This document shows positions 2,072 through 51,880 of a DNA stretch of 64,000 nucleotides, piece after piece. The DNA lies in the NCBI GenBank assembly GCA_030390025.1, contig CM059432.1:48796001-48860000 (forward strand), given 5' to 3'. A program made the position numbers and the translations under genes. How positions within the stretch are numbered: position 1 is the stretch's first letter; each line of letters starts with the position of its first letter. The notes under the pieces are model-generated. The model saw nothing but the letters and a program-made list of their open reading frames with translations, did not search any database and had not been told where the DNA came from. Origin of the DNA: Squalus acanthias. Taxonomy: Eukaryota.

Positions 2072-2480
2072 TAGGACACCACTAGTAACTTCCTCCCAAT
2101 TTGAGTTCATACCCATTATCCCTTCTCTCTGTCTTCTACTGCCTAACCAATCTCCTAACCAGGTCAATAATTTGCCTTCAATTCCATGAGCTTTTATTTT
2201 AGCTAACAATCTCTTACATGGAACCTTATCAAATGCTTTCTGGAAGTCCATATAAACTACATCCAAAGACATTCCCCTGTCTACTATTTTATTTAGTTCC
2301 TCAAAAGATTGAATTAGGCTCGTTAGACATGACCTACCCGTTACAAATCCATCTCTCCAGTCAGCTTAAATTTCTCAAAGTCAGTCTGTCCTTAATTATA
2401 GATTCCAATATCTTCCCCACAACAGACTAAGAGGTCTACAATTTCCAGGTTTATCCCCATCACCTTTCTTAAATAATGGA
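2072..2480 (-). mobile_element. CR1 LINE RT fragment, opposite strand
   Basis: Minus-strand ORF 1931-2272 reads [15 protein letters not shown]...EEVTSGVLQG. Confidence 0.9.
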
Positions 2481-3641
2481 GTTAAATGATAAAATGATTA
2501 TCCTGGACAGAAATAATGCAAACAGCTGGTTGTTTATCCTCTATTCCTTATCTATTGTACAATCTTGTACAAAATAGGGTGATAAAACTTCTATTCCACA
2601 TAGCTGGTTCATGGTCATACATATTTCCTCAAATGTAACTAGAGACATCGGACAAGAAAAGAAACCCAAAGGTACACTATTTGAATAGGAATGATTCAAG
2701 GATGCTAGACAAATGAATGTGTATTTCATTCCTTCCACCAAACAGAGAAACACAGACAGCTCGCTGACATATCGTCACAGAGGTCAATTTTAAAATTATT
2801 ACAATACTGGCAAGCTCTAAATTCCTAATAAAAATATATAATGTTGGAATTCTTATGATCTGAAACAGAATAGATGGATCCATCATCTTAATGTGTTCAT
2901 ATATCAATGAATTATTTGATGATATACTTCCAGAGCAGATGCAATGCCAGCAGAATCAATAAGAATCAGTACGTCCCATAAGCAGTATTGATCGTGAATA
3001 ACCTAGAACTTACTTCATTCAGTTCCAGCTGCCAGAAACCTAAAGATGAACCTCAGATGCTAAGAAGAAAATTATTGCCATAAGTATTTCATAACTTGGA
3101 AGATTGACGTGTTCCTTTTTAAGAGTTCTGTTTTAGTCGCTGGCGTCCAAGCAAATTTGCAATTTATTATCCTTTTTGTCAGCAATTACTAATGATTTAA
3201 CTCATTCTGTTGGCTCATCTAAGACCTCCATTGTAAAAGCTCAATTTTTTTGATTCATGACCTCTCCAATCTGAATGCACAGGTGGATAACTGGGTTAAT
3301 TTGTTTACCAGTATTCCCCTGGCAAATAACCAAGTCTTTGAATTCCTGTATGTGTTCCATGTGCTCTGTCACTTTAAGCTTGAACTGTAAGCACCCTTTT
3401 TATTCATTTGATTTTTTTCACAAGCTAAAATTGGCTGGACATCTATTGACATCACTACAAATGACAGGTTCAATTTGGCGTTTATATATGTGAGGCTGGC
3501 AACACATCTTCATTTCACTGGTATGTGTACTTCAGGTTATTCTATCACTTTTATCTAGCCTTTAAAATTTCAGTCTATTCCATAATCTCTTCTAATCTCA
3601 GTCAGACTTGTACTTAAGACTGTTTCATTCAATAATGATGC

Positions 3642-14171: not shown

Positions 14172-14710
14172 CAAGGCACAAGTCCAGAGTGTGATGAAAT
14201 ACTCTCCACTTGCCTGGATGAGTGCAGCTCCAACAACACTCAAGAAGCTCGACACCATACAGGACAAAGCAGCCCGCTAGATTGGCACCTCATCCACCAC
14301 CTTAAACATTCACTCCCTCTACCACCGGCGTATCGTGACTGCAGTGTGTACCATCTACAAGATGCACTGCAGCAACTCACCAAGGCTTCTTCAGCAGCAC
14401 CTCCCAAACCCGCGACCTCTACCACCTAGAAGGACAAGGGCAGCAGGCGCATGAGAACACCACCACCTCCAAGTTCCCCTCCAAGTCACACACCATCCTG
14501 ACTTAGAAATATATCACCGATCCTTCATCGTCGCTGGGTCAAATTCCTGGAACTCCCTACCTAACAGCACTCTGGGAGTACCTTCACCACACGGATTGCA
14601 GCGGCTCAAGGCGGCGGCTCACCACCACCTTCTCAAGGGCAATTAGGGATGGGCAATAAATGCTGGCCTTGACAGCGACGCCCACATTGCATAAAGAAAT
14701 AGAAAAAAAA
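14172..14710 (+). mobile_element. 3' fragment of the tRNA-headed LINE family (family B)
   Basis: KAQV.SVM.YSPLAWM coding remnant; tail ctcaagggcaattagggatgggcaataaatgctggcctt followed by an A-rich end. Confidence 0.9.
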
Positions 14711-15185
14711 ATAATATGTGATCTCCCTATTTTTCTTACCAAAATGTAATACCTCACATTTATCTGTGTTGAAATTTATTTGCCAATTATATGCCCATTC
14801 TACAAGTTTATTAATGTCTTCTTGTAATTTGTTGTAGTCCTCCTCAGTATTGCCTATTCCACTCCGCCCTCCCCCCCTCCCGGCCCCCCCCCCCACCCCC
14901 CAAATTTGGCATCATCAGCAAACTTAGAAATTGTGTTTTGGATTCCAATGTCTAAATCGTTAATATAAATTGTGAACAACATTGGACTCAGCACTGATCC
15001 TTGTGGGATCCCACTTTCCACCTTCTGCCACTCTGAATAGCTGCCTTTTACCCCTACTCTCTGCTTTCTGTCTTGAAGCCAGCTAGCTATCCATTCTGCT
15101 ACTTTTGCCCTGACTCCGCATTCTCTGGCCTTATTCATTACTCTTATTATGTTGTAACTGTTTGAAAATCTAGATAAATTACATT

Positions 15186-17728
15186 TAGATACATAGATAC
15201 ATAGAAGATAGGAGCAGGAGTAGGCCATCCGGCCCTTCGAGCCTGCTCCGCCATTTAATGAGATCATGGCTGATCCTCCAATTCAGTATCCCGTCCTCGC
15301 CTTCTCTCCGTAACCCTTAACCCCTTTTGCCTGTAGAAATATATCTAATTCCCTCTTAAATATATTTAATGAGCTGGCGTACACTGCCCTCTGTGGCAAT
15401 GAGTTCCACAGGTTCACCACCCTCTGAGTGAAGAAATTCCCCCTCATTTCTGTCCTAAATGGTTTAGCCCTTATCCTTAAATTATGTCCTCTAGTTCTGT
15501 TCTCACCAGCCAAGGGAAACATTCCTTCTGCATCTAGTCTGTCTAGACCTGTCAGAATTTTATACACTTCTATGAGGTCCCCTCTCAATCTTCTAAACTC
15601 CAGTGTGTACATCCCTAAACTACATAGTCTCTCCTCATAGGTCAATCCCGCCATTCCTGGTATCAGCCTGGTGAATCGCCGCTGCACCCTCTCCATGGCA
15701 AGAACATCTTTCCTCAGATGAGGCGACCAAAACTGTACACAGTACTCGAGGTGTGGTCTCACCAGTGCCCTGTACAGCTGCAGCAAGGTATCCCTGTTCC
15801 TGTATTCCAACCCTTTTGCTATGAAGGCCAGCATACCGTTTGCCTTCTTGATCGCCTGTTGCACCTGCATGCTCGCCTTCAGTGACTGGTGTACAAGAAC
15901 ACCCAGGTCTCTCTGTACTTCCCCCTCTCCCAATTTATTGCCATTTAAATAATAATTTGCCCTCCCGTTCCTGCACCCAAGGTGGATAACTTCGCACTTG
16001 TCCACATTATAGTGCATCTGCCATTTATCCGCCCAATCACCCAGTCTGTCCAAATCGCTCTGGAGCTTCCTGGTCTCCTCCTCTGAGCCCACCCCCCCTC
16101 CTAGTTTAGTGTCGTCTGCAAATTTGGAAATGCTGCATCCGACTCCCTGATCCAGGTCATTAATGTAAATTGTGAACAGCTGGGGACCCAGGACAGATCC
16201 CTGTGGTACCCCACTTGTTACTGCCTGCCATTCAGAAAATGAGCCGTTTATTCCAACTCTCTGTTTTCTATCTGACAGCCAGTTCTCTATCCACGTCAAT
16301 ACTTTCCCCTTTATCCCATGAGCTTCAATTTTCCCTGCTAATCTTTTATGTGGGACCTTATCGAAGGCCTTTTGGAAGTCCAGGTACACCACATCTACTG
16401 GCTCTCCCCCATCTATTTTACCAGTTACTCCCTCAAAAAATTCCAATAGATTAGTCAAGCACGATTTACCCTTTGTAAATCCATGTTGACTCTGTCCTAT
16501 CCTGTCCCCATTTGCTAAGTGCTCCGCTATTTCATCCTTAATGATGGACTCCAGCATTTTACCCACAACTGATGTAAGGCTTACAGGTCTGTAATTACCT
16601 GCTTTTTCCCTACCCCCCTTTTTGAATAGTGGGGTAACGTTAGCTACCCTCCAATCCATGGGCACTGTTCCCAAGTCTAATGAATTCTGAAAAATCATAC
16701 TTAGTGCATCCGCTATCTCTAGGGCCACCTCCTTCAGCACCCTAGGATGCATGTTATCAGGCCCTGGGGATTTGTCCGCCTTCAATCCCTTTAGCTTCCT
16801 TAACAACATATCCTTAGAGATATTGACTTGCGTCAGTTCCTCCTTTGCAAATGTCCCTATTTTTCCCGATATCCCAGGGAGGTTTTTTGTGTCTTCCTTC
16901 GTAAAGACTGACCCAAAGTATGCATTTAGTTGGTCTGCCATTTCTTTATTTCCCGTTATATATTCCCCCGTATCTGACTGCAATGGGCCAACTTTGGTTT
17001 TCACCAGTCTTTTCCTCTTGATATACTTATAAAAGCTTTTGGAGTTAGTTTTTATATTTTCCGCCAGCTTGCTTTCGTAAGCTATTTTGCCCCTCTTGAT
17101 TAAGCCCTTTGTCCTCCTTTGCTCTATCTTAAACTGTTCCCAATCTTCCGCTCTGGCGCTTTTTTTGGCTATTTTATACGCCCTATCTTTGGATTTTATG
17201 CTGTCTCTAATTTCCCCTGTTATCCACGGTTGAGTCACCTTTTTAGATTTCCTTTTATGCCAGATTGGTATAAACAATTTTTGCAATTTTGTCATTCTAT
17301 CTTTAAATGCTTGCCATTGTTTATCTACCTCCAGTCCTCCCAGGAACGTTGTCCAATCAGACCTACTCAGTTCCCGTCTAATGGCATCATAATTCCCCTT
17401 GTTTAAATTCAGGACCTTAGTCTCTGAGTCAATTTCTTCGCTCTCCATTTCGAGTGAGAAATCGATCATGTTATGATCGCTCTGACCCAAGGGTCCCCGT
17501 ACAACAAGATTACTAATTAGTCCCTTCTCATTGCACAGTACCCAGTCCAATATAGCCTGTTCCCGAGTTGGTTCCTCGACATATTGATCCAGATAACCAT
17601 CCCTTAAACACTCAAAGAATTCCTCCTCCTCATTATTTTTACTGATTAGGCTATTCCAATCTATATGTAAGTTAAAGTCACCTATGATGACAGCTGTGCT
17701 CTTATTGCACGCTTCTCTAATTTCCCTC
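15186..17728 (-). mobile_element. Young 5'-truncated CR1 LINE
   Basis: (atagatac)n tail, 3' UTR, and an uninterrupted ORF2 reading frame up to the truncation point inside the endonuclease (IGDFN motif). Confidence 0.95.
15283..17550 (-). CDS. CR1 ORF2 (partial APE endonuclease + reverse transcriptase), 5'-truncated but uninterrupted
   Basis: 755-aa ORF with [24 protein letters not shown] and FADD motifs; the frame stays open upstream to ~17728. Confidence 0.9.
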   Translation of the reverse strand: MDWVLCNEKGLISNLVVRGPLGQSDHNMIDFSLEMESEEIDSETKVLNLNKGNYDAIRRELSRSDWTTFLGGLEVDKQWQAFKDRMTKLQKLFIPIWHKRKSKKVTQPWITGEIRDSIKSKDRAYKIAKKSARAEDWEQFKIEQRRTKGLIKRGKIAYESKLAENIKTNSKSFYKYIKRKRLVKTKVGPLQSDTGEYITGNKEMADQLNAYFGSVFTKEDTKNLPGISGKIGTFAKEELTQVNISKDMLLRKLKGLKADKSPGPDNMHPRVLKEVALEIADALSMIFQNSLDLGTVPMDWRVANVTPLFKKGGREKAGNYRPVSLTSVVGKMLESIIKDEIAEHLANGDRIGQSQHGFTKGKSCLTNLLEFFEGVTGKIDGGEPVDVVYLDFQKAFDKVPHKRLAGKIEAHGIKGKVLTWIENWLSDRKQRVGINGSFSEWQAVTSGVPQGSVLGPQLFTIYINDLDQGVGCSISKFADDTKLGGGVGSEEETRKLQSDLDRLGDWADKWQMHYNVDKCEVIHLGCRNGRANYYLNGNKLGEGEVQRDLGVLVHQSLKASMQVQQAIKKANGMLAFIAKGLEYRNRDTLLQLYRALVRPHLEYCVQFWSPHLRKDVLAMERVQRRFTRLIPGMAGLTYEERLCSLGMYTLEFRRLRGDLIEVYKILTGLDRLDAEGMFPLAGENRTRGHNLRIRAKPFRTEMRGNFFTQRVVNLWNSLPQRAVYASSLNIFKRELDIFLQAKGVKGYGEKARTGY

Positions 17729-18830
17729 GTGCATTACCCTTGTCTACTCTCTCAATTACCTCTTCAAAGAATTCAATGAGGTTGGTCAAGCAAGAGTTTC
17801 TTTTCTGAAATCCACGCTGACTAGTCATTATTATATTTTTGGTTTCTAGATATTCTTCTATTTTTTCCCTTTAGTAGGGATTACATAATTTTTCCTACCA
17901 CTGATGTTAAGCTGACTGGTCTATAGTTCCCTGGACATGTTCTATCTCCCTTCTTAAATATAGGTATTACGTTAGCTATCTGCCAGTCCTCTGGCACTAC
18001 ACCTTTTTCTAATGAATTATTAAATATGTGTAATAATGCCTCTGCCATCTCTTCCCTACATTCTTTTAAAATGCGCGGATGTAATCCGTCTGGACCAGGG
18101 GTTTTATGCTCTGAGTTTGATTAGTTTATTTAATATCTCTCCTCTTTATTTTAAATGTGGTTATACCATTTTAAATCTCATCTTCCGATGTCATGTCCAC
18201 CTGATCTGTCTCCCTGGTAAATACTGAAGCAAAGTAATTATTTAATATTCCTGACATTTCGCTATCGCTGTCTGGGATTTTATCCTGACCGTCCCTATTC
18301 CCATCCCGACTTTCCATTTTTTACTTATGTGCCAGTAGAATATTTTACTATTTTGTTTTATGTTCCTTGATAATTTAATTTCATAGTTCCTCTTTGCCTT
18401 CCTAATTGTTTTTTTGACTTCTCTCTTAATCGCTTCGTATTCTCCCTTGTCATGCACTCCCCTGCTGTCGATGTACTTAATATATGCCTCTTTCCTTACC
18501 CTCAACTTTTATTCATCCATGGTGTCTCATTAGTGTTTAGCTTGTTCTTGATTTTTAGCGGAATACATTTTTCCTGGACTCTGTTGAACACCGTTTTAAA
18601 TGTTTCCTATTGCTGTTCTACATCATTATTTGCCAATATCGTTGTCCATTTTATTTTCTCAAGTTCTATTCTCAGCCCCTCAAAATCAGCTTTTCTGCAA
18701 TCTATTACCCTGGACTTCGTCATACTTATGTCCTTCTCAATTATTATCTTAAAGAGTATTATATTATGGTTGCTATTACCTAGATGTTCCCCTACTTTTA
18801 CTTCTCTTATTGATAGCATAGTGGGAACGA

Positions 18831-18906
18831 TAGTGTAGTGGTTATGTCACTGGGCTAGTACTCCAGAAGCCTGGACTAATAATCTGGAAACGTGAGTTCA
18901 AATCCC
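18831..18906 (+). promoter_or_regulatory. Pol III type-2 internal promoter (A box, B box) at the LINE 5' end
   Basis: TAGTGTAGTGG at 18831-18841; GAGTTCAAATCCC at 18894-18906. Confidence 0.75.
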
Positions 18907-20336
18907 ACCAATGGCAACTGGGGAATTTAAATTTAGTTAATTAAATAAATCTGGAATAAAAAGCTAGTATCAGTAATGGTAACCATGAAACTATCGGATT
19001 GTCGTAAAAACCCATCTGGTTCACTAATGCCCTCTAGGAAATCTGGCCTATGTGTGACTCCAGACCCACAGCAATGTGGTTGACTCTTAACTGCCCTCTG
19101 AAATGGCCAAGCAAGCCACTCAGTTGTAACAAACTGCTACAAACATAATAAGAAAGAAACTGGATGGACCACCTTGGCACACGGCAACGGCACACCCAGG
19201 CCAGTCAACCCTGCAAAGTCCTCCTCACCAACATCAGGGAACTTGTGCCAGAATTGGGAGAGCTGTCCCACATACTAGTCATAGACATACTCACAGAATC
19301 ATACCTTTCAGCCCTGGCTGTCCTCAACTTTGAGTCTGGACCCCATGAAGTCTCATGGCTTCAGGTCAAGCATGGGCAAGGAAATCTTCTGCTGATTACC
19401 ACCTACTGCCCTCCCTCAGCTGATAAATCAGTACTCCTCCATGTTGAACACCACTTGGAAGAAGCAATGAGGCACAGAATGTACTGTGGATGTCCATCAC
19501 CAAGAGTGGCTCGGTAGCACCACTGCTGGCCTGAGTCCTGAAGGACATAGTTGCCAGTTTGGGCCTGCGACAGGTGATGAGAGAACCAACACAAGGGAAA
19601 AACCGACTTTACCTGTCGCAGATGCATCTGTCCATGGTAGCAGTAGCAGTGTCCACTGCACAGTCCTTGTGGAGACGAAGTCCTGTCTTCACACTGAGGA
19701 AAACCGCCGTTCTGTGGCGGCGGCGGCACCACCACCATGCTAAATGGGATAGATTCAGAACTGATCTAGCAGCTCAAAACTGGGCATCCATGAGGAGCTG
19801 TGGGGCAGCAGCAGAATTGTATTCCACCACAATCTGTAACCTCATGGCCCGGCATATCCCTCGCTCTACCATTACCACCAAGCCTGGTTCAATAAGGAGT
19901 GTAGAAGAGCATGCCGGGAGCAGCCCCAGGCGTAGCTAAAAATGAGGTGCCGACCTGGGGAAGCTGCAACACAGGACTGCATGTATGCTAAAAAGCAGAA
20001 GCAGCATGCTATAGACAGGGCTAAGCGATCCCACAATCAACGGATCAGATCAAAGCTCTGCAGTCCTGTCACATCCAGTCGTGAATGGTGATGGACCATT
20101 AAACAACTAACAGGAGGAGGAGGCTCCATGCATATCCCCATTCTCAATGATGGTGGAGCCCAGCACGTGAGTGCAAAAGACAAGGCTGAAGCGTTTGCAG
20201 CCAGAAGTGCCAAGTGGATGATCCATATCGGCTTCCTCCTGAGGTCCCCACCATCACAGAATCCAGTCTTTAGCCAATCCGATTCACTCGACGTGATATC
20301 AAGAAACGGCTCAGCGCACTGGATACAGCAAAGGCT

Positions 20337-21707
20337 ATGGGCCCTGACAATATCCCGGCTATCGTGCTGAAGACTTGTGCTCCAGAACTAGCCGCGCCTC
20401 TAGCCAAGCTGTTCCAGTACAGCTACAACACTGGCATCTATCCGACAATGTGGAAAACTGCCCAGGTATGTCCTGTCCACAAAAAGCAGGACAAATCCAA
20501 TCCGGCCAATTACCGCCCCATCAGTCTACTCTCAATCATCAGCAAAGTGATGGAAGGTGTCATCAACAGTGCTATCAAGTGGCAGTTACTCACCAATAAC
20601 CTGCTCACTGATGCCCAGTTTGGGTTCCGCCAAGACCACACTGCTCCCGACCTCATTACAGCCTTGATCCAAACATGGACAAAGGAGCTGAATTCCAGAG
20701 GTGAGGTGAGAGTGACGGCCCTTGACATCAAGGCAGCATTTGACTGGGTGTGGCATGAAGGAGCCCGAGTAAAATTGAAGTCAATAGGAATCGGGGGGAA
20801 AACTCTCCACTGGCTGGAGTCATATCTAGCACAAAGGAAGATGGTTGTGGTGATTGAAGGTCAATCATCACAGCCCCAGGACATCACTGCAGGAGTTCCT
20901 CAGGGCAGTGTCCTAGGCCCAACCATCTTCAGCTGCTTCATCAATGACCTTCCCTCCAACATAAGGTCAGAAATGGGGATGTTCGCTGATGACTGCACAG
21001 TGTTCAGTGCCATCCACAAATCCTCAGATAATGAAGCAGTCCATGCCCGCATGCAACAAGACCTGGACGACGTTCAGGCTTGGGCTGATAAGTGGCAGGT
21101 AACATTCGCGCCACAGAAGTGCCAGGCAATGACTATCTCCAACAAGCGAGAGTCTAACCACCGCCCCTTGACATTCAATGGCATTACCATCACCGAATCC
21201 CCCACTACCAACATCCTGGAGGTCACCATTGACCAGAAACTTAACTGGACCAGCCACATAAATACTGTGGCAACAAGAGCAGTTCAGAGGCTAGGTATTC
21301 TGCGGCAAGTGTCTCACCTCCTGACTCCCCAAAGCCTTTCTACCATCTGCAAGGCACAAGTAAGGAGTGTGATGGAATACTCTCCACTTGCCTGGATGAG
21401 TGCAGCTTCAACAGCACTCAAGAAGCTCGACGCCATACAGGACAAAGCAGCCCGCTTGATTGGCACCCCATCTATCACCTTAAACATTCACTCCCTCCAC
21501 CACCAGCGTACCGTGGCTGCAGTGTGTACCATCCACAAGATGCACTGCAGCAACTCGCCAAGGCTTCGTCGGCAGCACCTCCCAAACCCATGTCCTCTTC
21601 CACCTAGACTGCAGCGCTTCAAGAAGGCGGCTCACCACCACCTTCTCAAGGGCAATTCGAGATGGGCAATAAGTGCTGGCCTTGCCAGCGAAGTCCACAT
21701 CCCATAA
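20337..21707 (+). pseudogene. Reverse transcriptase domain of the family-B LINE
   Basis: [32 protein letters not shown] and FADD motifs; a deletion near 21608 relative to the 14172-14710 copy removes part of the C-terminus. Confidence 0.9.
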
Positions 21708-22007
21708 ACGAATTTAAAAAAAAAATCTGCTCTGGTTTTTTCCCCATTACTAGATCCAGTAGTGAATCCTCCCTTGTTGGGCTTCTTACATATTGGGTTA
21801 GAAAGGTGTCCTGTACACATTGTAGGAACACCATTCCCTTATCCCTACCTCTTCTGGCCAATTCATTTTGGGGTAGTTGAAATTCCCCATGATTATTATG
21901 CTATGTTTTTTACTCATTTCCCTAATTTGTTTGCATATTTCTTCCTCCACTTCCCTTCTACTATTAGGTGGTCTATAGACTACCCCAATTAGTGTGATTG
22001 ATTCTAA

Positions 22008-27980: not shown

Positions 27981-28530
27981 GGTTTTCAGCACCTCAAAGC
28001 TGTCAAACACTGAAAAATATTGTGCATGGTCCCTTTAAGGAAACCGGCAGATGATGTGTCATCAAATGACATCATCAGACCCGCTTCCTGTTAATTGGCC
28101 GGTAAGCCCGCATTAACAAGGCCAATCAAGGGAAAATCATGTCTGCAGAGCGGAGGCAGCTGGGGGCGGGACTGGAACTCGTAAACCAGCTGACCCGCCC
28201 CCATCCCGACACCGCTGAGAAAATCATGGCCTATGCCTCTGTTTATAAAGCCAAGCATCCAGTATGCCTTTTTAACACTTGTCCTGCCACCTTCAGAGAT
28301 TTGTGTACACACACCCACAAGTCTCTCTGTTCCTGCACCCACTTTTGAAGATTGTGGCCAGAGCCTCCACAATTTCTACCTTTACTTACTTCCCTTAGTA
28401 ACCTCGGATACATCCCATCTGGACCAGGTGACTTTTCTACTTTGAGCACTGCCAACCTTTTAAGTACCTCCTCTTTATCTATTTTTATCCAATCCAATTT
28501 CTCTACTACCTCCTCCTTTACGGTGACAAA

Positions 28531-28787
28531 GTATTTATTGCCCATCCCTAATTCGCCTGAGGGCATTAAGAGCCAACCAGTGGGACTATAATCACATGTA
28601 GGTCAGACTGTGCCAGGGAAGTGTTAGTGAACCAGTTGAATTTTTATGACAATCTAGCAGCTTTCATTGTCATTTTATCAGGTGCTCCCCACAAATTTAT
28701 TGAATTGAATTTCCGAATTTGCCACGGTGCGTTTTGAACTTACAACCTCTGGGTTACCAGTATAGTGTCATAACCACTAGGCTACCA
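28531..28787 (-). mobile_element. tRNA-headed SINE made of the family-B LINE 5' head plus its 3' tail
   Basis: A box TAGCCTAGTGG at 28784-28774; B-like AGTTCAAAAC at 28740-28731; body homologous to 18831-19100; ends in aattagggatgggcaataaat. Confidence 0.8.
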
Positions 28788-28857
28788 TAAATCGATCTAG
28801 ATGTTCAATTGTCCTGGATATATTGAGAAAAGGAAACATAAGGATTTTTCAAATAGT

Positions 28858-29585
28858 TTTTTTAAATTCGTTTATGGGATCAGGGCATCGCTGGCAATGC
28901 CAGCATTTATTGCCCATCCCTAGTTGCCCTTGAGAAGGTGGTGGTGAGGCACCTTCTTGAACCGCTGCAGTCTGTGTGGTGAAGGTACTCCCACAGTACT
29001 GTTAGGGAGGGAGTTCCAGGATTTTGACCCAGCGACGATGAAGGATCGGCGATATACTTCTAAGTCAGGATGGTATGTGACTTGGAGGGGAACGTGGAGG
29101 TTGTGGTGTTCCCATGCGCCTGCTGCCCTTGTCCTTCTAGGTGGAAGAGGTCGCGGGTTTGGGAGGTGCTGCCGAAGAAGCATTGGCGAGTTGCTGCAAT
29201 GCATCTTGTAGATGGTACACACTGCAGCCACGGTACGTCGGTGGTGGAGGGAGTTGAATGTTTAAGGTGGTGGATGGGGTGCCAATCAAGCGGGCTGCTT
29301 TGTCCTAGATGGTGTCGAGCTTCTTGAGTGTTGTTGGAGCTGCACTCATCCAGGCAAGTGGAGAGTATTCCATCACACTCCTTACTTGTGCCTTGTAGAT
29401 GGTGGTTAGGCTTTGGGGAGTCAGGAGGTGAGACACTCGCCGCAGAATACCTAGCCTCTGACCTGCTCTTGTTGCCACAGTATTTATGTGGCTGGTCCAG
29501 TTAAGTTTCTGGTTAATGGTGACCCCCAGGATGTTGATAGTGGGGGATTCGGCGATGGTAATGCCATTGAATGTCAAGGGGAGGA
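28858..29585 (-). mobile_element. Family-B LINE 3' fragment
   Basis: ORFs 29305-29577 and 28920-29231 match the C-terminus of the 20337-21707 ORF; same tail. Confidence 0.92.
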
Positions 29586-31214: not shown

Positions 31215-32670
31215 TCAGCTAAAACTGCCAAGTAGATTATTCGGCCTCCTCCAGAGGTCCCCATCATCATAGATGCCAGTGTCCAGACAATTCAGTTCAC
31301 TCCACATTAGGAAGTGATCGCGTGCACTGGACACGGTAAAGGCTATGGGCCCTGAAAACAACCCGGCTGTAGTGCTGATGATCTGTGCACCACAACTAGC
31401 TGACCCCTAGCCAAGCTATTTTGGTACAACTATGATACTGTGGAACATTACCTCAGGTATGTCCTATCCATAAAAATCAGGGCAAATCTAACCTGGCCAA
31501 TTACGACTCTATCAGTCTCCTCCCAATCAGCAGAGAAGTGATAGAAGGAGTTAACAATAGTGCCATCAAGCCATAACTACTCACCAACAACATGCTGACT
31601 GATGCTCAGTTTGGCCTCTGCCAGGACCACTGAGCTCCAGACCTCGTCACAGCCTAATCCAGGCATAGACACATGAACTGAATGCCATAGTAGCTGCCCT
31701 CGACATCAAAGCTGCATTTAACCAAGTATAGCACCAAGGAGCCATAGCAAAACTGAGCTCAAGGGATCTAGGGGAAAAACACTCCAATGACTGGAATCAT
31801 ACAACAAACAACAACTTGCATTTATATAGTGCTTTTAACATAGTAAAACATCCAAGGCTCTTCACAGGAGCGTTCTAAGGCAAAACCTGATACACAGGAA
31901 GATGGCTGTAGTTGTCAGAGGCAATTACTGCAGCCCCAGGACATTGCTGCAGGAGTTCATCAGGGAGATGCCCTGGGGCCCAACCATCATCAGCTACTTC
32001 AACAACCTTTCCTCCATCATAAGGCCATGAATGGGTCTGCTTGCTGTCCAGAGTGTTTAGCTCCATTCACAACTCCTCCAATGATGAAGCAGCCCATGCA
32101 ACAGGAGTTAGACAACATCCCCAAGTGTGGGCTGACAAGTAGCAGGTAGCATTCATGACACAATAAGTGCCAGGCAATGACTATCTTGAACAAGAAAAGA
32201 TCCAATCAGCTCCCTCTGACCTTCAATGGTACCACCATTCACTTGGTCCCCCACCAACATCCTGGAGGTCACCATTATGCAGAAACTTCACTGGACCAGC
32301 TATATCAACACTGTGGCTTTAAGAGCAAGGTCAAAGCTGGTTACTCTCTGACAAGTGCATCACCCTCTGACCCATAAAAGCCTCTCCATCATCTGTAAAG
32401 CTTGTCAGGAGTGGATGCAATACTCACCACTCACCTGGATGGATATAGCCACAACAGCACTAAGAAGCTCAACACCATCCAGGACAGAGCAGTTCCTGCC
32501 ACTCGACTCAATTTTCACCCCAGGTAAACTGTGGCTGCAGTATGTACGATATACAGGATGCACTGCAGCAACTCATGTAAGATTATTTTAACCGTGCCTT
32601 CCAGCTCCACGACCTCTACCACCGAGTGCAACAAGAGTAGCAAGAGAATAGAAACACAGTCACCTCCAAG
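31215..32670 (+). mobile_element. Old, heavily mutated family-B LINE RT fragment with a short L2 tail inserted at ~31802-31875
   Basis: Collinear with 20200-21610 (aaggctatgggccctga, gacatcaaagctgcattt, caggacattgctgcaggagttc). Confidence 0.85.
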
Positions 32671-35987: not shown

Positions 35988-36183
35988 AGCGCCGTTCCTT
36001 CATGGTTGCTGGTTCAAAATTCTGGAACACCCTCCCCATCAGCACTATGGGATTACCTTCACCACACGGACCGCAGCGGTTCAAGAAGGCGGCTCACCAC
36101 CACCTTCTCAAGGGCAGTTAGGGATGGGCAATAAATGCTGGCCTTGCCAGAGACGCCCACATCCCATGAACGAATAAAAAACA
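35988..36183 (+). mobile_element. Family-B LINE 3' tip
   Basis: gcagcggttcaagaaggcggctcaccaccaccttctcaagggcag...cccatgaacgaataaaaa. Confidence 0.9.
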
Positions 36184-36256
36184 ATCAAATGTTAAAAGTC
36201 AAGGATTGTGAAAATTATCAGCCAAACGGAGTAAAATGAGCCTGTGTAAACAGATT

Positions 36257-39433: not shown

Positions 39434-40130
39434 CATTGCCAAATCCCCCACCATCAATATCCTGGGGGGGTCACCATTGACCAGAAACTTAACTGGACCA
39501 GCCATATAAATACTGTGGCAACAAGAGCAGGTCAGAGGCTAGGTATTCTGCGGCGAGTGTCTCACCTCCTGACTCCCCAAAGCCTTTCCACAATCCACAA
39601 GGCACAAGTAAGGAGTGTGATGGAATACTCTCCACTTGCCTGGATGAGTGCATCTCCAACAACACTCAAGAAGCTCGACACCATCCAGGACAAAGCAGCC
39701 CGCTTGATTGGCACCCCATCCACCACCTTAAACATTCACTGCCTCCACCACCGGCGTACCGTGGCTGCAGTGTGTACCATCTACAAGATGCACTGCAGCA
39801 ACTCGCCAAGGCTTCTTTGGCAGCACCTCCCAAACCCGCAACCTCTACCACCTAGAAGGACAAGGGCAGCAGGCGCATGGGAACACCACCACCTCCAAGT
39901 TCCCTCCAAGTCACACACCATCCTGACTTGGAAATATATCGCCGTTCCTTCATCATCGCTGGGTCAAAATCCTGGAACTCCCTCCCTAACAGCACCATGG
40001 GTGTACCTTCACCACATGGACCGCAGCGGTTCAAGAAGGCTCACCACCACCTTCTCAAGGGCAATTAGGAATGGGCAATAAATGCTGGCCTTGCCAGCGA
40101 CGCCAACATCCCAGGAACGAATCAAAAATA
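39434..40130 (+). mobile_element. Family-B LINE 3' fragment
   Basis: ORF 39422-40081 (VTIDQKLNWTSHI...YSPLAWM) and characteristic tail. Confidence 0.92.
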
Positions 40131-41906
40131 ACACATGCGAGGAGCTCATGGACTTCTTTGTCACTAAGATTAAGACCATCTGTTTAGCTGCTTCTGCCAC
40201 AACGTTCCTTTCCTCCAGCCCACCGGGCCAAACTTCCCCTAAGGTTTCCCCCTGCCATAGCCCTGAACTCTCATCTTTCTTTAGTTTCGCTCCTATATCC
40301 CTTCATGCCCTCTCCGAGCTTATCTTGTCCATGAGACCTACCATTTGCTCCCTTGACCGTATTCCCACCAAACCGTTGACCACCTAACTTCCATTCCTGG
40401 CCCCCTATTGTTAATGGTTCTCTCTCCTCAGGTACTGTCCCCATACCCTTCAAGTCTGCGTCATCACCCCTCTCCTCAAAAGACCCACCCACCCATGACC
40501 CCTCTTGCCCCATCTCCAACTTCCCTTTTCTCTCCAAAGTCCTTGAACGCGTTGTCACCTCCCAAATCCGTGCCCATCTTTCCCGCAACTCCATGTTTAA
40601 ATCCGTTCAGTCAGCAGTGAAACGGCCCTGAGCGAAGTTACAAATGACATCCTATGTGACTGTGACAAAGGTAAACTATCCCTCCTCATCCTTCTCGACT
40701 TGTCTGCAGTCTTTGACACAGTTGACCACACCATTCTCCTCCAACACCTCTGCTCCATTGTCCAGCTGGGTGGGACTGCCCTTGCATGGTTCCATTCTTA
40801 TCTATCCAATCGTAGCCAGATAATCACCTGCAACGGCTTCTCTTCCCGCTCCCACACCGTTAACTCTGGAATCCCCTTCGGATTTATCCTTGGCCCCCTC
40901 CTATTTCTCATCTACATTTTGGCCCTTGGCCACATTATCCGAAAACATAATGTCAGGTTCCACATGTACGCTGACATCACTTAGCTCTACTTCACCATCA
41001 CCTCTCTCGACCCCTTCACTGCCTCTGATTTGTTACACTGCTTGTCCAACATCCAGTATTGGATGAGCAGAAAGTTCCTCCAACTAAATATTGGGAAGTC
41101 CAAAGCCATCGTCTTCAGTCCCCACCACAAACTCCATTCTCTAGCCACCGATTCCATCTCTCTCCCTGGCAACTGTCTGAGGCTGAACCACACGGTTCGC
41201 AACCTTGGTGTCATATTTGACCCAGAGATGAGCTTCCAACCACATATCCGCTCCATCACCAAAACCGCCTACTTCCACCTCTGTAACACTGCCCCAGTCT
41301 GCCCAGCCTCATCTAGTGTGCTGCTGAAACCCTCATCCATGCCTTTGTTACCTCTAGACTTGACCATTCCAATGCTCTTCTGGCTAGCCTCCCACCTTGC
41401 ACCCTCCTTAAACTTGAGCTCATCCAAAACTCTGCTGCCCATCTTCTAACTTGCACCAAGTATGCTTCAGCCATCACCCCTGTGCTCGCTAACTGGTCCG
41501 GCAATTCTTGATTTTAAAATTCTCATCCTTATTTTCAAATCCCTCCATGGCCTCGCCCCTACCTATCTCTGTAATCAGCTCTACAACCCACTGAGATCTC
41601 TACGCTCCTCTAATTCTGGCCTCTTGCGCATCCCCGATTTTAATTGCTCCACCACTGGCAGCCGTGCTTTCAGCTGGCTAGGCCCTAAGCTCTGAAATTC
41701 CCTCCCTAAACCTCTTCGTCTCTCTACCTCTCTCTCCTCCTTTAAGACGCTCCTTAAAATGTACCTCTTTGACCAAGCTTTTGGTCATCTGTCCGAATAC
41801 TTCTTTATGTGGCTCGTGTCAAATTTTGTTTGATAATTCTCCTGTGAGGCCTTTTGGGACATTTTATTACTTTAAAGGCGCTACATTAATTTAAGCTGTT
41901 GTTGTT
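40131..41906 (+). mobile_element. L2 LINE RT and 3' end, degenerate
   Basis: LDLSAVFDTVDH, LGPLLFLIY, FHMYAD, WMSRKFLQLNIGK and NLGVIFD motifs; (GTT)n tail at ~41897-41906. Confidence 0.92.
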
Positions 41907-47980: not shown

Positions 47981-49109
47981 ATCACAGGATAAGCTTTCAG
48001 TGAAAGTTTAACAAACCAAAAATCGAAGGCATAAAATTCATGCAATGAAACATCTTCTGTAGATAGTCTCTTCATGATCACAGTGCCTGTAAAGTGTTTC
48101 CATGAGAGAATGCTCTTATCATTTCCATTAAAATAATTACCCAGACAAAGATAAATGATATTCTGATATGCTGAATGCTGACTGTTGTCAAAGACGAGTG
48201 GTGGGGGAGGGGGAGCTAGTTTCATTTCTCTTCGTTTCTGCAGCACTGTGCCTCTCTGCTTTTTCAAATTGGTTACTGTCAGTGCAACTGAGCCAAGCCA
48301 TTACACTGCTCCATTTGGCCAAATTGCTTTCCATCAGTGTCATTCACTTTTGCCATTATTCTCATTGCTGCCTCCAGAAATAGTTTAATACAACAGACCC
48401 TTTCATAATGCGTTTTTGGGACGATGTACAGAAAGTGTGGAGGAGGGGATTTCTCTAGCTGCTCTGTTGGACACAGAGCTGTGAACTATGCATGTTTTCC
48501 CAAAGATCATGGCACTAGAGAGCATCACAAGATGCTACTTTCCCTCTGTTGGATCATTTACAAATGTTCTGCTCCAAAGTGAAAAAAATTATTTAACCCT
48601 TAAGAGTGTGGTCAAACTTACTTGTTTGCCTCACCGTTGGATTGCAGGGACTGCTAGTGATTACCTGAGAAGAACCCTTTACATAAAGATAAACCTGGTT
48701 CTGTCAATGATGCAACCATGTAAATCTTAAAACTTAGGGCTTGAAGGCACTTCTTACACTACAGGATTTCAACTAGAGATAGACATGTGGTTTTCCCATC
48801 GTCGGCATCAATCTGAAGCGTAAACGAGTTGAAGTTTGGTTTTAGCGAATTAAGCTTAGGGAGCTTATTCTCCATCTTTATACCCTGTATCTCTGTAGTA
48901 CATGGTGGAACCCAGCACGCTGACTTCAATTGGACCAGAAGCGGGTGTAAAAGTAGAAGAGCGGCACATGGAAGTCTCTCTCCTGAAGCAGGATTCCCGA
49001 TCGAGCACAGAAGTGAAATAGCAGTTAGGCTGGTTTAGCAATCACTCCTTATGTTCAATTTGCAGCCAATGAAAACCCAACTTTTTGGAACTTGTTCCCA
49101 TTTCTAAAT

Positions 49110-51880
49110 TTTTTTAAAATTCATTCATGAGATGTGGGCGTCGCTGGCAAGGCCAGCATTTATTGCCCATTCCCAATTGCCCTTGAGAAGGTGGTGGTGA
49201 GCCGCCATCTTGAACCGTTGCAGTCTGTGTGGTGAAGGTACTCCCACAGTGCTGTGAGGGAGGGAGTTCCAGGATTTTGACCCAGCGACGATGAAGGATT
49301 GGTGATATACTTCTAAGTCAGGATGGTGTGTGACTTGAAGGGGAACTTGGAGGTGGTGGTGTTCCCATGAGCCTGCTGCCCTTGTCCTTCTAGGTGGTAG
49401 AGGTTGCGGGTTTGGGAGGTGCTGCCGAAGAAGCCTTGACGAATTGCTGCAGGGCATCTTGTAGATGGTACATACCGGTGGTGGAGGGAGTGAATGTTTA
49501 AGGTGGTGGATGGGGTGCCAATCAAGCAGGCTGCTTTGTCTTGGATGGTGTTGAGCTTCTTGAAACATAGAAACATAGAAGATAGGAGCAGGAGTAGGCC
49601 ATTCGGCCCCTCGAGCCTGCTCCGCCATTCGATGAGATCATGGCTGATCATCCAAACTCAGTACCCTGTACCTGCCTTCTCCCCATATCCCTTGATACCT
49701 TTATCTTTAAGAAATATATCTAACTCATTCTTCAATATATTTAGTGACTTGGCCTCAACTACCTTCTGTGGTAGAGAATTCCACAGGTTCACCACTCTCT
49801 GGGTGAAGAAATTCTTCCTCATTTCTGTCCTAAATGGCTTACCCCTTATCCTTAGATTATGACCCCTGGTTCTGGACTCTCCAACCATCGGGAACATTCT
49901 TCCTGCATCTAGTTTGTCCAGACCTGTCAGAATTTTATATGTTTCGATGAGATCCCCTCTCATTCTTCTATACTCCAGCGAGTATAAGCCCAATCGACCC
50001 AATCTCTCCTCATATGTCATTCCTGCCATCCCAGGTATCAGCCTTGTGAATCTTCGCTGAACTCCTTCCATGGCAAGAACATCCTTCCTCAGATAAGGCG
50101 ACCAAAACTGCACACAGTACTCAAGGTGTGGTCTCACCAAGGCCCTGTACAACTGCAGCAGGACATCCCTGTTCCTATACTCAAACCCTTTCGCTATGAA
50201 GGCCAACATACCATTTGCCTTCTTCACCGCCTGCTGCACCTGCATGCTTACCTTCAGCGACTGGTGCACAAGGACACCCAGGTCTCGTTGCACTTCCCCT
50301 TCTCCCAATCTATTGCCATTCAGATAATAGTCTGCCTTTCTGTTTTTGACACCAAAGTGGATAACCTCGCATTTATCCACGTTATATTGCATCTGCCACG
50401 CTTCTGCCCACTCACCCAACCTGTCCAAATCATCCTGGAGCTTCTCGGTATCCTCCTCGCAGCACACACACCCACCCAGCTTTGTGTCATCTGCAAACTT
50501 GGAGATATTACATTTAGTTCCCTTATCTAGATCATTAATGTATATTGTGAATAGCTGGGGTCCAAGGACCGATCCCTGCGGTACCCCACTAGTCACTGCC
50601 TGCCACTCGGAAAAAGACCCATTAATTCCTACTCTCTGCTTTCTGTCCGCCAACCAGTTCTCTATCCAAGTCAGTACCTTACCCCCAATCCCATGTGCTT
50701 TAACTTTACACGCTAATCTCTTATGCGGGACCTTATCGAAAGCCTTTTGAAAGTCCAAATACACCACATCTACTGGTTCTCCCTTAACTATTTTCCCAGT
50801 TACATCCTCAAAAAATTCCAGTAGATTAGTCAAGCACAATTTACCTTTTGTAAATCCATGTTGACTTTGTCCGATCCTGTCACTGTTTTTCAAGTGCTCA
50901 GCTATTACATCCTTTATAATGGACTCTAGCATTTTACCCACTACCGATGTCAGGCTTACCGGTCTGTAATTCCCCGCTTTCTCTCTACCACCCTTTTTGA
51001 ATAGTGGGGTAACATTAGCTACCCTCCAATCCATGGGTACAGTTCCAGATTCCATCGAATGTTGTTGGAGCTGCACTCATCTAGGCAAATGGAGAGTATT
51101 CCATCACACTCCTGACTTGTGCCTTGTAGATGGTGGAAAGGCTTTGGGGAGGCAGGAGGTGAGACACTCGCTGCAGAATACCCAGCCTCTGACATGCTCT
51201 TGTTGCCACGCTATTTTTGTGGCTGGTCCAGTTAAGTTTCTGGTCAATGGTGACCCCCCAGGATATTGATGGTGGGGGATTCGGCGATGGTAATGCTGTT
51301 GAATGTCAAGGGGTGGTGGTTAGACGCTCGCTTGTTGGAGATAGTCATTGCCTGGCACTTGTGTGGCGTGAATGTTACCTGCCACTTATCAGCCCAAGCC
51401 TGAATGTCGTCCAGGTCTTGCTGCATGCTGGCATGGACTGCTTCATTATCTGAGGAGTTGCGAATGGCACAGAACACTGTGCAGTCATCAGCAAACATCC
51501 CCACTTCTGACCTTATGATGGAGGGAAGGTCATTGATGAAGCAGCTGAAGATGATTGGGCCTAGGACACTGCCCTGAGAACTCCTGCAGTGATGTCCTGG
51601 GGCTGTGATGATTGACCTCCAACCTCCACAACCAGTCTCCCTTTGTGCTAGGTATGACTCCAGCCAGTGGAGAGTTTTCCCCCTGATTCCCATTGACTTC
51701 AGTTTTACTAGGGCTCCTTGATGCCTTGATGTCAAGGGCAGTCACTCTCACCGCACCTCTGGAATTCAGCTCTTTGTTCATCTTTGGACCAAGGCTGTAA
51801 TGAGGTCTGGAGCTGAGTGGTCCTGGTGGAACCCAAACTGGGCATCAGTGAGCAGGTTATTGGTGAGTAAGTGCTGCTTA
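49110..51880 (-). mobile_element. Family-B LINE 3' half split by a young CR1
   Basis: Segments 49110-49563 and ~51057-51880 rejoin (AAPT.LKKLNTIQDKAA); QGSVLGP and FADD motifs in 51244-51735. Confidence 0.92.
49564..51056 (-). mobile_element. Young 5'-truncated CR1 LINE with uninterrupted RT frame
   Basis: (aaacatag)n tail; ORF 49658-51076, whose first few codons come from the host element, is highly similar to 15283-17550. Confidence 0.95.

What the first reader, a model, noticed from the sequence alone, without database searches (positions are those of the whole stretch)
18811..21725. tRNA-headed, single-ORF LINE with no TTTT on its sense strand: candidate Pol III-transcribed autonomous retrotransposon
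Seen: the block sits inside an older CR1 whose reading frame rejoins exactly (PEQI|REV), so head and body most simply arrived as one unit. It starts with A box TAGTGTAGTGG (18831) and B box GAGTTCAAATCCC (18894), and reaches the APE endonuclease only ~400 nt later, leaving no room for ORF1. Reading all ~2.9 kb of the sense strand I found no run of four or more T, but about a dozen A4+ runs. The younger partial copies (14172-14710, 28858-29585, 39434-40130, 49110-51880) also lack sense-strand TTTT, whereas neighbouring CR1 ORFs contain many (e.g. 544-547, 843-848). Known: T4+ is the vertebrate Pol III terminator, and LINEs are normally Pol II-transcribed. Inference: this LINE family uses a SINE-like Pol III promoter and has purged terminators from its coding sequence, which would require cap-independent translation. 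This copy itself is mutated and defective. Novelty is unverified.
Basis: partly seen in the sequence, partly recalled or inferred. Interest (0 to 1): 0.88.

Follow-up and report, generated by a model that had tools for sequence, protein, structure and literature searches.

The report
LINE family with a tRNA-derived head
A very abundant jumping gene of this large animal genome carries, as its true first 100 bases, a tRNA-like start signal of the kind normally found only on short parasitic repeats, so this protein-coding element may be copied by the cell's small-RNA polymerase.

Summary
Window 18809-21724 is one insertion into an older CR1-like element. From 18823 it is a decayed copy of a ~3.28-kb single-ORF (endonuclease + reverse transcriptase) LINE.

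The tRNA-like head is not a chance SINE insertion. Of 20 genomic copies chosen only by their endonuclease region, 18 carry it. A head marker and an endonuclease-start marker occur 15,435 and 13,811 times in the genome. In 48 aligned copies, similarity starts abruptly at the same base, 8 nt before the A box. Head variants co-segregate with ORF variants.

There is no ORF1 and no in-frame ATG near the ORF start.

The sense strand has no T4+ in the majority sequence. It has 11 private T4+ sites and no shared one in 85.5 kb of copies. This is not significant against dinucleotide or synonymous-codon shuffles (P = 0.21 and 0.11). T-run avoidance is nevertheless more extreme than in all 47 related LINE ORFs, while A-runs are normal.

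Pol III transcription is therefore plausible (about 0.5) but unproven. No usable RNA evidence was available. Six full-text searches found no description of such an element.

The parts
18809..18822 (+). 14 extra nucleotides at the 5' junction. They belong neither to the host element nor to the family sequence, and they resemble head nt 7-17 (about 10 of 11).
   Evidence: Empty-site joint 18808->21725; family homology begins at 18823; sequence read.
18823..18918 (+). tRNA-derived head. A box at 18831-18841, B box at 18894-18906. D, anticodon (AGT-type loop) and T arms are present, with a ~23-nt insert in the variable region and no acceptor-stem pairing.
   Evidence: 48-copy alignment; ARAGORN calls a tRNA in 3 of 49 related loci (Thr, Thr, Ile) and 0 in the window; Rfam tRNA model below threshold in 3 of 5 loci (20-26 bits against 29), model positions 7-64.
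18919..19139 (+). SINE-type body serving as 5'UTR. It holds three poly(A)-signal-like hexamers (18940-18945, 18944-18949, 18955-18960). It also holds an in-frame ATG (19103) that is closed by TAA (19127-19129).
   Evidence: The same body occurs in a SINE at 28530-28790 (-) and at 10-20 times higher contig depth than the head in laid runs.
19140..19217 (+). CpG-rich linker of variable length between the SINE-type body and the endonuclease. It contains no conserved in-frame ATG.
   Evidence: anchor distances of 57-74 nt, not multiples of 3; the ATG is replaced by ATA in about 9 of the 48 copies.
19218..19900 (+). Apurinic-type endonuclease region (decayed). 105 nt of the family sequence are missing at 19313.
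   Evidence: Pfam Exo_endo_phos_2, E = 1.6e-8, on the homologous piece of L046; window against majority alignment.
20480..21200 (+). Reverse transcriptase domain (decayed).
   Evidence: Pfam RVT_1, E = 5.7e-36, on the homologous piece of L044; tblastn of P0002 on the window, 47% identity.
21201..21659 (+). C-terminal part of the ORF. 163 nt of the family sequence are missing at 21608, and the family stop codon is mutated here.
21660..21724 (+). 3'UTR/tail shared with SINEs, ending ...CGAATTT(A)n. It carries AATAAG here where other copies have AATAAA.
14172..14711 (+). Partial 3' copy of the same family.
28857..29584 (-). Partial 3' copy of the same family.
39439..40131 (+). Partial 3' copy of the same family.
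49109..51874 (-). Partial copy of the same family, interrupted by a 1.5-kb foreign insertion (49564-51056).
28530..28790 (-). Old SINE copy: a homologous tRNA head without the 23-24-nt insert, the same body, and the LINE's 3' tail.

Best explanation
This is a decayed copy of a very abundant, roughly 3.28-kb single-ORF LINE. It encodes an endonuclease and a reverse transcriptase. Its tail looks L2-like from recall; the clade was not resolved.

Shown: the family's genuine 5' end is a tRNA-derived SINE-type head followed by a SINE-type body. Head, body, ORF and tail have been copied together as one unit through at least two subfamilies.

Inferred, most likely mechanism:
1. The A and B boxes act as an internal type-2 Pol III promoter that starts transcription at the first base of the head.
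2. Because the sense strand has no T4+ terminator, Pol III can run through all 3.3 kb. It would stop in flanking DNA, as it does for the SINEs that share the tail.
3. That RNA is the template for target-primed reverse transcription, and every full-length copy carries its own promoter.
4. Speculative: the same uncapped RNA is translated by non-AUG or cap-independent initiation. Alternatively, the protein comes in trans from Pol II read-through transcripts of other copies.

The confidence given is for the Pol III mechanism. The structural part (head belongs to the family and is co-inherited with the ORF) I hold at about 0.95.
For: - Unbiased sample: of the top 23 non-self rows of an endonuclease-only search, I took the 20 with query start <= 10 and fetched 700 nt upstream of each. 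18 of 20 carry the head, 14 of them contiguously; 2 are 5'-truncated.
- Whole-genome counts at <= 2 mismatches: head-specific 22-mer 15,435; endonuclease-start 21-mer 13,811; reversed-pattern controls 0.
- In 48 aligned copies the flanks are unrelated, and similarity begins abruptly at GGGAACGGTAGC. The A box starts at +9 and the B box 52 nt after it.
- Head variants at sites 21, 26 and 32 co-segregate with ORF variants at 1029, 1623, 1749, 2021, 2036, 2551 and 2987 (Fisher P = 0.001-0.009 each, 28 copies).
- The junction between the SINE-type part and the ORF is the same in all copies.
- The 3,278-nt majority sequence has T runs of 469/76/7/0 for lengths 1/2/3/>=4, and one 966-codon open frame.
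- 15 full-length copies hold 10 T4+ in total, against a mononucleotide expectation of 4.3-4.8 per copy. A4+ counts match expectation.
- 50 copies and fragments (85,515 nt) have 11 private and 0 shared derived T4+ sites.
- Two young copies, 96.5% identical to the majority, have none inside the body.
- 0 of 47 related LINE ORFs lack T4+ (range 2-39).
- The family's TTT odds are 0.25, against a minimum of 0.64 among the 47. Its TTT/AAA ratio is 0.31, against a minimum of 0.44.
- Other LINE pieces in the window have T4+ at or above expectation.
- SINEs with the same tail exist.
Against: - Zero T4+ is not significant once TT depletion or codon usage is kept. Dinucleotide shuffles give a mean of 1.46, P(0) = 0.21. 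Synonymous shuffles give 1.86, P = 0.11, and codon-order shuffles 1.78, P = 0.14.
- The run-length series fits a simple geometric decay.
- The private-versus-shared test gives P = 0.20.
- One GC-rich relative (L150) has equally low TT (0.71) and only 2 T4+, so composition alone can come close.
- No natural Pol III transcript of this length and no Pol III-made mRNA of a transposon is known to me (recalled).
- The element has AATAAA in its 3'UTR, as Pol II mRNAs do.
- No RNA, cap or polymerase-occupancy data were available. The laid runs are contigs of uncertain kind.
- None of the 22 fetched copies with a 3' end has an intact ORF. The longest open frame seen is 821 of about 966 codons.
Confidence: 0.5

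Rival explanations
1. The head is a fixed, inherited part of the LINE, but full-length RNAs are made by Pol II from an internal promoter in the SINE-derived 5'UTR. The tRNA-like part would serve another role or none, and the T-poor sense strand would be an incidental compositional bias.
For: - LINEs are Pol II elements as far as is known (stated in Kojima 2018, PMC5786205, discussion read).
- The T4+ absence is not significant against dinucleotide or codon shuffles.
- AATAAA is present in the 3'UTR.
- L150 shows that a GC-rich LINE can be almost as T-run-poor.
Against: - The 5' end of the family coincides with the tRNA +1, with the A box at +9. That is where a type-2 Pol III promoter would start.
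- A and B boxes are kept in both subfamilies.
- Three poly(A)-signal-like hexamers lie 117-137 nt from the start.
- T-run avoidance is strand-specific and more extreme than in all 47 relatives.
Confidence: 0.3
2. Copies are transcribed from upstream host promoters, and the tRNA-like fold is cut at its 5' side (RNase P-like processing). This would give the precise 5' end, much as 5' ribozymes do in R2 and RTE elements.
For: The 5' boundary is precise. 5' self-cleaving ribozymes in several LINE clades are cited in Kojima 2018.
Against: - The head has no acceptor-stem pairing. The Rfam alignment covers model positions 7-64 only.
- ARAGORN sees a tRNA in only 3 of 49 loci.
- The 5'UTR shows no unusual folding stability (z = +0.75 and -0.36).
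- Cutting at the 3' side of the fold would separate the head from the body.
Confidence: 0.05
3. The head is added anew at each insertion. The reverse transcriptase would switch from a head-less LINE RNA to an abundant SINE RNA within the shared body.
For: The body is shared with SINEs. Template switching that builds chimeric retrocopies is known for L1 (U6/L1; PMC4476161, seen in the search listing only).
Against: - The LINE-type head carries a 23-24-nt insert that the window's SINE lacks.
- The marker for that insert occurs about as often as the endonuclease start (15,435 against 13,811).
- In the laid contigs, head depth equals LINE 5' depth while body depth is 10-20 times higher.
- Head variants are linked to ORF variants up to 3 kb away.
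Confidence: 0.05
4. A SINE happened to insert at the 5' end of this one truncated LINE copy.
For: None beyond the single-copy appearance in the window.
Against: 18 of 20 independently chosen copies have the same head at the same junction. The genome-wide marker counts agree.
Confidence: 0.01

Closest known systems
tRNA-derived SINEs with a LINE-derived tail (SINE2 class). The elasmobranch and coelacanth families SacSINE1/LmeSINE1 and HE1 were seen in Luchetti 2017, PMC5499810 (passages), and in the Ohshima 2013, PMC3747384, table.
   Same: tRNA-derived head with A and B boxes at the very 5' end, a non-coding body, a 3' tail shared with a LINE, and no T4+ inside.
   Different: This element is 3.28 kb long. 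Between body and tail it carries a 966-codon endonuclease/reverse-transcriptase frame that stayed open in the majority sequence. Whether its body is the Deu or V domain could not be tested, because no reference sequence was readable.
Single-ORF L2/CR1-type LINEs (for example the zebrafish L2 elements that have only ORF2; recalled, no call).
   Same: Endonuclease plus reverse transcriptase in one ORF, no ORF1, about 3.3 kb, a specific 3' tail that partner SINEs copy, and frequent 5' truncation.
   Different: Their 5'UTRs are not reported to be tRNA-derived. Here the first ~96 nt are a tRNA-derived promoter-type head, and the ORF lacks an in-frame ATG near its start.
SINEs built from the 5' and 3' parts of LINEs (bipartite non-autonomous LINEs plus an added head; Kojima 2018, PMC5786205; abstract, discussion and passages read).
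   Same: The SINE body equals the LINE 5' part and the SINE tail equals the LINE 3' part.
   Different: Kojima found this only for the RTE and Vingi clades. He assumes that the head is added to an already deleted LINE, that the LINE is Pol II-driven, and that SINEs 'cannot encode a protein'. Here the complete coding LINE itself bears the head, so one internal deletion would yield a SINE.
U6/L1-type chimeric retrocopies made by template switching (PMC4476161; search listing only).
   Same: A Pol III-type small-RNA sequence is joined to the 5' side of a LINE sequence.
   Different: Those are dead-end copies with variable junctions. Here the junction is fixed, and the composite has itself multiplied to about 14,000-15,000 copies and diversified.

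Membership tests
LINE (non-LTR retrotransposon with APE and RT) | Apurinic-type endonuclease domain | tested here: met
   Pfam Exo_endo_phos_2, E = 1.6e-8, on L046:574-1284. Homologues carry PF03372/PF14529.
LINE (non-LTR retrotransposon with APE and RT) | Reverse transcriptase domain in the same long ORF | tested here: met
   Pfam RVT_1, E = 5.7e-36. One 966-codon open frame in the majority sequence.
LINE (non-LTR retrotransposon with APE and RT) | Many 5'-truncated copies sharing one 3' end | tested here: met
   Window copies are all 3' pieces. L151 and L152 are truncated at majority positions 1040 and 584. Contig depth rises towards the 3' end.
LINE (non-LTR retrotransposon with APE and RT) | Assignment to the L2 or CR1 clade by RT phylogeny | not tested
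   No named reference sequences were available. The (TGAA)-like tail is only a recalled resemblance to L2.
tRNA-derived SINE (SINE2) | tRNA-derived head with A and B boxes at the 5' terminus | tested here: met
tRNA-derived SINE (SINE2) | Short (below about 700 nt) and non-coding | tested here: not met
   3,278 nt with a 966-codon open frame.
tRNA-derived SINE (SINE2) | 3' tail copied from a partner LINE | tested here: met
   The tail is the LINE's own. SINE copies share it.
Type-2 Pol III transcription unit | A box near +8 to +19 and B box 30-60 nt downstream | tested here: met
   A box at +9 to +19 and B box from +72 in the 48-copy majority.
Type-2 Pol III transcription unit | No T4+ terminator inside the transcribed unit | tested here: met
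   0 in the 3,278-nt majority sequence. The significance depends on the null model.
Type-2 Pol III transcription unit | Pol III/TFIIIC occupancy and uncapped 5'-triphosphate transcripts | not testable with these tools
   No RNA holder is on record, and only contigs could be laid.
Deu- or V-domain SINE superfamily | Central domain matching the published consensus | not tested
   The source papers are not held. Supplements gave nothing, and a string search of papers gave nothing relevant.

The most novel reading that the evidence does not exclude
[quoted passage not shown] Its 3.3-kb uncapped transcript would be both the template and (by non-AUG, cap-independent initiation) the messenger. The same element would be the direct parent of SINE families by simple internal deletion, which would tie a conserved SINE body to a LINE 5'UTR.
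Probability: 0.4. Interest if true: 0.9.

Novelty: new variant of a known kind. Interest (0 to 1): 0.72.

Why it matters
LINEs and SINEs are taught as two kinds. LINEs are Pol II-made, protein-coding and autonomous. SINEs are Pol III-made, non-coding and parasitic. A successful LINE family that carries a SINE-type Pol III head as its own 5' end blurs that line.

It gives a one-step route to new SINEs, by internal deletion of a headed LINE. It extends the idea that SINE bodies come from LINE 5' parts beyond the RTE and Vingi clades.

It also makes a long-standing question testable in a natural system: can Pol III make a functional messenger of several kilobases? The T-run-free coding sequence is a concrete, checkable prediction. 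If Pol II turns out to drive the element, the structure still shows that a LINE can capture and keep a SINE's front end for a long time.

Tried and rejected
- ARAGORN and Rfam at gathering threshold find no tRNA in the window. The head is too degenerate in this copy, so related copies had to be used.
- RNA evidence: no RNA holder is listed for the stretch. The four laid runs are contigs whose RNA label is a guess. They cannot show starts, strand or expression. I used them only for joints and relative contig depth.
- A private-versus-shared (McDonald-Kreitman-like) test of T4+ gains gave 11 private and 0 shared for T. A, C and G together gave 58 private and 14 shared. Fisher P = 0.20, so the test is underpowered.
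- Folding of the 5'UTR of two copies shows no unusual stability (z = +0.75 and -0.36). There is no support for an IRES-like or ribozyme-like structure from this test.
- ATG candidates for the ORF start. The ATG at majority nt 303 is in frame but is closed by TAG/TAA. The ATG at nt 358 is out of frame in most copies that keep it (anchor distances 57-74 nt, commonest value 68, 5 copies) and is replaced by ATA in about 9 of 48 copies.
- 80 metagenome relatives at 25-40% amino-acid identity have no sense-strand tRNA or A/B box pair upstream of the ORF. The head is therefore not a general trait of the wider group, or those contigs lack their 5' ends.
- The identity of the SINE body (Deu or V domain) could not be checked. 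The supplements of Luchetti 2017 and one file of the MetaSINE paper could not be read and may hold the needed consensus sequences.
- Earlier notes of this scan held nothing on this family.
- I considered that the LINE lands preferentially beside SINEs. I rejected this because the junction is constant and no SINE tail lies between body and ORF.
Full report
WHAT LIES AT THE COORDINATES

The block is real and arrived as one insertion. Joining the minus-strand flanks gives an open host frame...GKKPEQI|REVKVGEHLG.... Contigs of all 4 laid public runs join 18808 directly to 21725, with 2 nt of ambiguity. This means other copies of the host CR1-like element lack the block.

Homology to the inserted family starts at 18823, not 18811. 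The 14 nt at 18809-18822 are extra junction letters that resemble head nt 7-17.

Compared with the family's majority sequence, this copy is 87-94% identical. It lacks 105 nt at 19313 and 163 nt at 21608.

THE HEAD BELONGS TO THE FAMILY

A search of the window's own 3.7-Gb genome with head plus endonuclease start gave 10,646 first-look candidates. Of these, 40 were scored, and nearly all ran from the head into the endonuclease. All 29 loci cut out continued into LINE sequence. Because that query favours joined copies, I made an unbiased sample.

- I searched with the endonuclease region alone.
- From the top 23 non-self rows I took the 20 with query start <= 10. Three rows starting at 37, 17 and 43 were dropped, and lower rows were not examined.
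- I fetched only the 700 nt upstream of each.
- 18 of 20 carry the head: 14 contiguously and 4 with internal deletions. Two are truncated at query positions 232 and 263.

Genome-wide counts agree. A 22-mer that marks the LINE-type head occurs 15,435 times and a 21-mer at the endonuclease start 13,811 times (<= 2 mismatches). Reversed-pattern controls give 0.

In an alignment of 48 copies the upstream flanks are unrelated. Similarity begins abruptly at the same base, GGGAACGGTAGC....

Head variants at sites 21, 26 and 32 co-segregate with ORF variants at seven sites out to position 2987 (Fisher P = 0.001-0.009 each, 28 copies). Head and body have therefore diversified together as one replicating unit.

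ANATOMY OF THE FULL-LENGTH ELEMENT

Of the 20 head-anchored copies fetched at 4.5 kb each, the 14 least rearranged measure 3.09-3.29 kb. All 20 are decayed.

The majority sequence of 15 copies (those 14 plus the window's copy) is 3,278 nt, with one open frame of 966 codons (nt 312-3212). The other two frames open for at most 120 codons, so there is no ORF1. Pieces of natural copies hit Pfam Exo_endo_phos_2 and RVT_1. Their database relatives are 930-990-residue endonuclease/RT proteins on 3.2-4 kb contigs.

The family is huge and was active fairly recently.
- An RT query gave 598,550 first-look candidates.
- Among 97 scored, open frames reach 821 residues.
- Two such copies are 96.5% identical to the majority sequence but 5'-truncated.

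The layout is:
- nt 1 to about 96: head
- about 97-330: SINE-type body
- about 330-430: CpG-rich linker of variable length
- then the endonuclease, the RT, a short 3'UTR and a tail ending CGAAT(A/T)0-4(A)n

THE HEAD IS tRNA-DERIVED

ARAGORN calls a tRNA in 3 of 49 related loci (Thr, Thr, Ile) and none in the window. The Rfam tRNA model aligns to 3 of 5 loci at 20-26 bits (threshold 29). It covers the D, anticodon and T arms, with a ~23-nt insert in the variable region. It does not cover the acceptor stem.

The A box starts at +9, and the B box starts 52 nt after the A box ends. This geometry places a type-2 Pol III start at the element's first base. That last point rests on established knowledge of tRNA-type promoters, not on a test here.

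T RUNS, FOR AND AGAINST

For selection against T runs:
- The window copy has 0 T4+ and 13 A4+.
- The majority sequence has T runs of 469/76/7/0 for lengths 1/2/3/>=4, whereas A, C and G have 14, 11 and 9 runs >= 4.
- 15 full-length copies have 10 T4+ in all. Eight are internal and private, and two sit at the 3' terminus. The mononucleotide expectation is 4.3-4.8 per copy. A4+ counts match expectation.
- In 85,515 aligned nt of 50 copies and fragments there are 11 private and 0 shared derived T4+ sites.
- Other LINE pieces in the window have T4+ at or above expectation.
- Among 47 related LINE ORFs from metagenome contigs, none lacks T4+ (range 2-39, median observed/expected 1.19).
- This family's TTT odds (0.25) and TTT/AAA ratio (0.31) lie below all 47 (minima 0.64 and 0.44). 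Its A runs are normal.

Against:
- Shuffles that keep dinucleotides give a mean of 1.46 T4+, P(0) = 0.21.
- Synonymous-codon shuffles give 1.86, P = 0.11, and codon-order shuffles 1.78, P = 0.14. Only recoding with uniform synonymous codons gives 5.06, P = 0.003.
- The private-versus-shared comparison with A, C and G has P = 0.20.
- One GC-rich relative (L150) has the same TT depletion (0.71) and only 2 T4+.

My reading is as follows. The absence of terminators is a met precondition for Pol III read-through. The strand-specific avoidance of T runs is exceptional among relatives. But the signal sits in T content, TT frequency and codon choice (Phe TTT 3 against TTC 15), so composition cannot be excluded as the cause.

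START OF TRANSLATION

The open frame has no ATG in its first 279 codons. An in-frame ATG at majority nt 303 is followed by TAG and TAA. An ATG at nt 358 is out of frame in most copies that keep it (anchor distances 57-74 nt, commonest value 68, 5 copies). In about 9 of the 48 copies it is replaced by ATA. The frame nevertheless stayed open in the majority sequence, so the protein was made. How it was made is unknown. This is compatible with unconventional initiation but does not prove it.

RELATION TO SINEs

An old SINE at 28530-28790 (-) has a homologous head without the 23-24-nt insert, the same body and the LINE's tail. Laid contigs show many joints from about 19096-19134 to about 21609-21649, which is the SINE form. 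In those contigs, depth over the body and tail is 10-40 times the depth over the head and the LINE 5' part. These are contigs of uncertain kind, so I use them for structure only.

The LINE-type head is thus essentially LINE-specific, while body and tail are shared with SINEs. Because tRNAs lack the insert, the LINE head looks derived. This favours capture of a SINE front end by the LINE, followed by joint evolution. The opposite order, SINEs born from a headed LINE by deletion, is not excluded.

MECHANISM

Shown: the composite is one inherited, self-propagating unit with a fixed junction and a sharply defined 5' end at the tRNA +1.

Inferred: Pol III starts there and reads through the terminator-free body. 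The RNA is reverse-transcribed at the tail, as for the SINEs that share it.

Speculative: the same RNA is translated, or the protein is supplied in trans.

The rivals are listed separately: a Pol II internal promoter, 5' processing of read-through RNA, and repeated template switching. The last two are disfavoured.

LITERATURE

Six full-text searches found no paper describing a coding LINE with a tRNA-derived head or a Pol III-driven LINE.

- Kojima 2018 (PMC5786205; abstract, discussion and passages read) screened all Repbase SINEs against LINEs. He found LINE 5' parts in SINE bodies only for RTE and Vingi. He states that such LINEs are Pol II-transcribed and that SINEs cannot encode a protein.
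- Luchetti 2017 (PMC5499810; abstract and passages) links SacSINE1-type SINEs to an L2 LINE by the tail only.
- Nishihara 2016 (PMC4824008; passages) says the function of SINE central domains is unknown.
- The original HE1/HER1 and Deu-domain papers are not held.

Repbase and Dfam could not be searched, so prior deposition of such a consensus cannot be excluded.

LIMITS

- The clade (L2 or CR1) and the superfamily of the SINE body are recalled resemblances, not tests.
- The host looks like a cartilaginous fish from recalled repeat sequences only.
- The copy counts are marker counts at <= 2 mismatches, not curated copy numbers.

Noticed in passing
window 14648-18808 and 21725-21870, minus strand: The host is a long CR1-like LINE copy (38% identity to P0075 over residues 120-909). 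Its endonuclease frame stays open across the insertion site, and its sense strand has 10 T4+ (8.3 expected).
   Followed up: partly
window 49564-51056: A 1.5-kb foreign insertion sits inside a partial copy of the family. It begins with an RT-like reading (..[19 protein letters not shown]..), so another retroelement is probably nested there.
   Followed up: no
window 31216-32574, plus strand: A related but distinct LINE copy, 72-74% identical in nucleotides to the studied element over its RT region. Whether that family also has a tRNA-type head is unknown.
   Followed up: no
window 18940-18960 (majority nt 117-137): Three poly(A)-signal-like hexamers (ATTAAA, AATAAA, AATAAA) lie directly after the head in a highly conserved AT-rich stretch. 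This is odd for a Pol II messenger so close to its start.
   Followed up: partly
3' ends of copies, e.g. window 21706-21725, L036, L038, L152, window 49109-49125: The terminal motif varies between CGAATAAAAA, CGAATTTAAAA and CGAATTTT(T)AAAA. The only recurrent T4+ of the family therefore sits at its very 3' end.
   Followed up: partly
window 36069-36184, plus strand: A tail-only copy (116 nt) of the shared LINE/SINE 3' end. It could be an extreme 5' truncation of either element.
   Followed up: no
L078:1965-2039 (metagenome contig): A tRNA-Ile call lies on the antisense strand about 60 nt upstream of an unrelated organism's LINE ORF. It is probably a neighbouring gene or a target-site preference.
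   Followed up: no
L039:4140-4400 and L041:120-200: C-rich simple repeats (CCCGAC-like and CCCCCG-like) flank two genomic copies.
   Followed up: no
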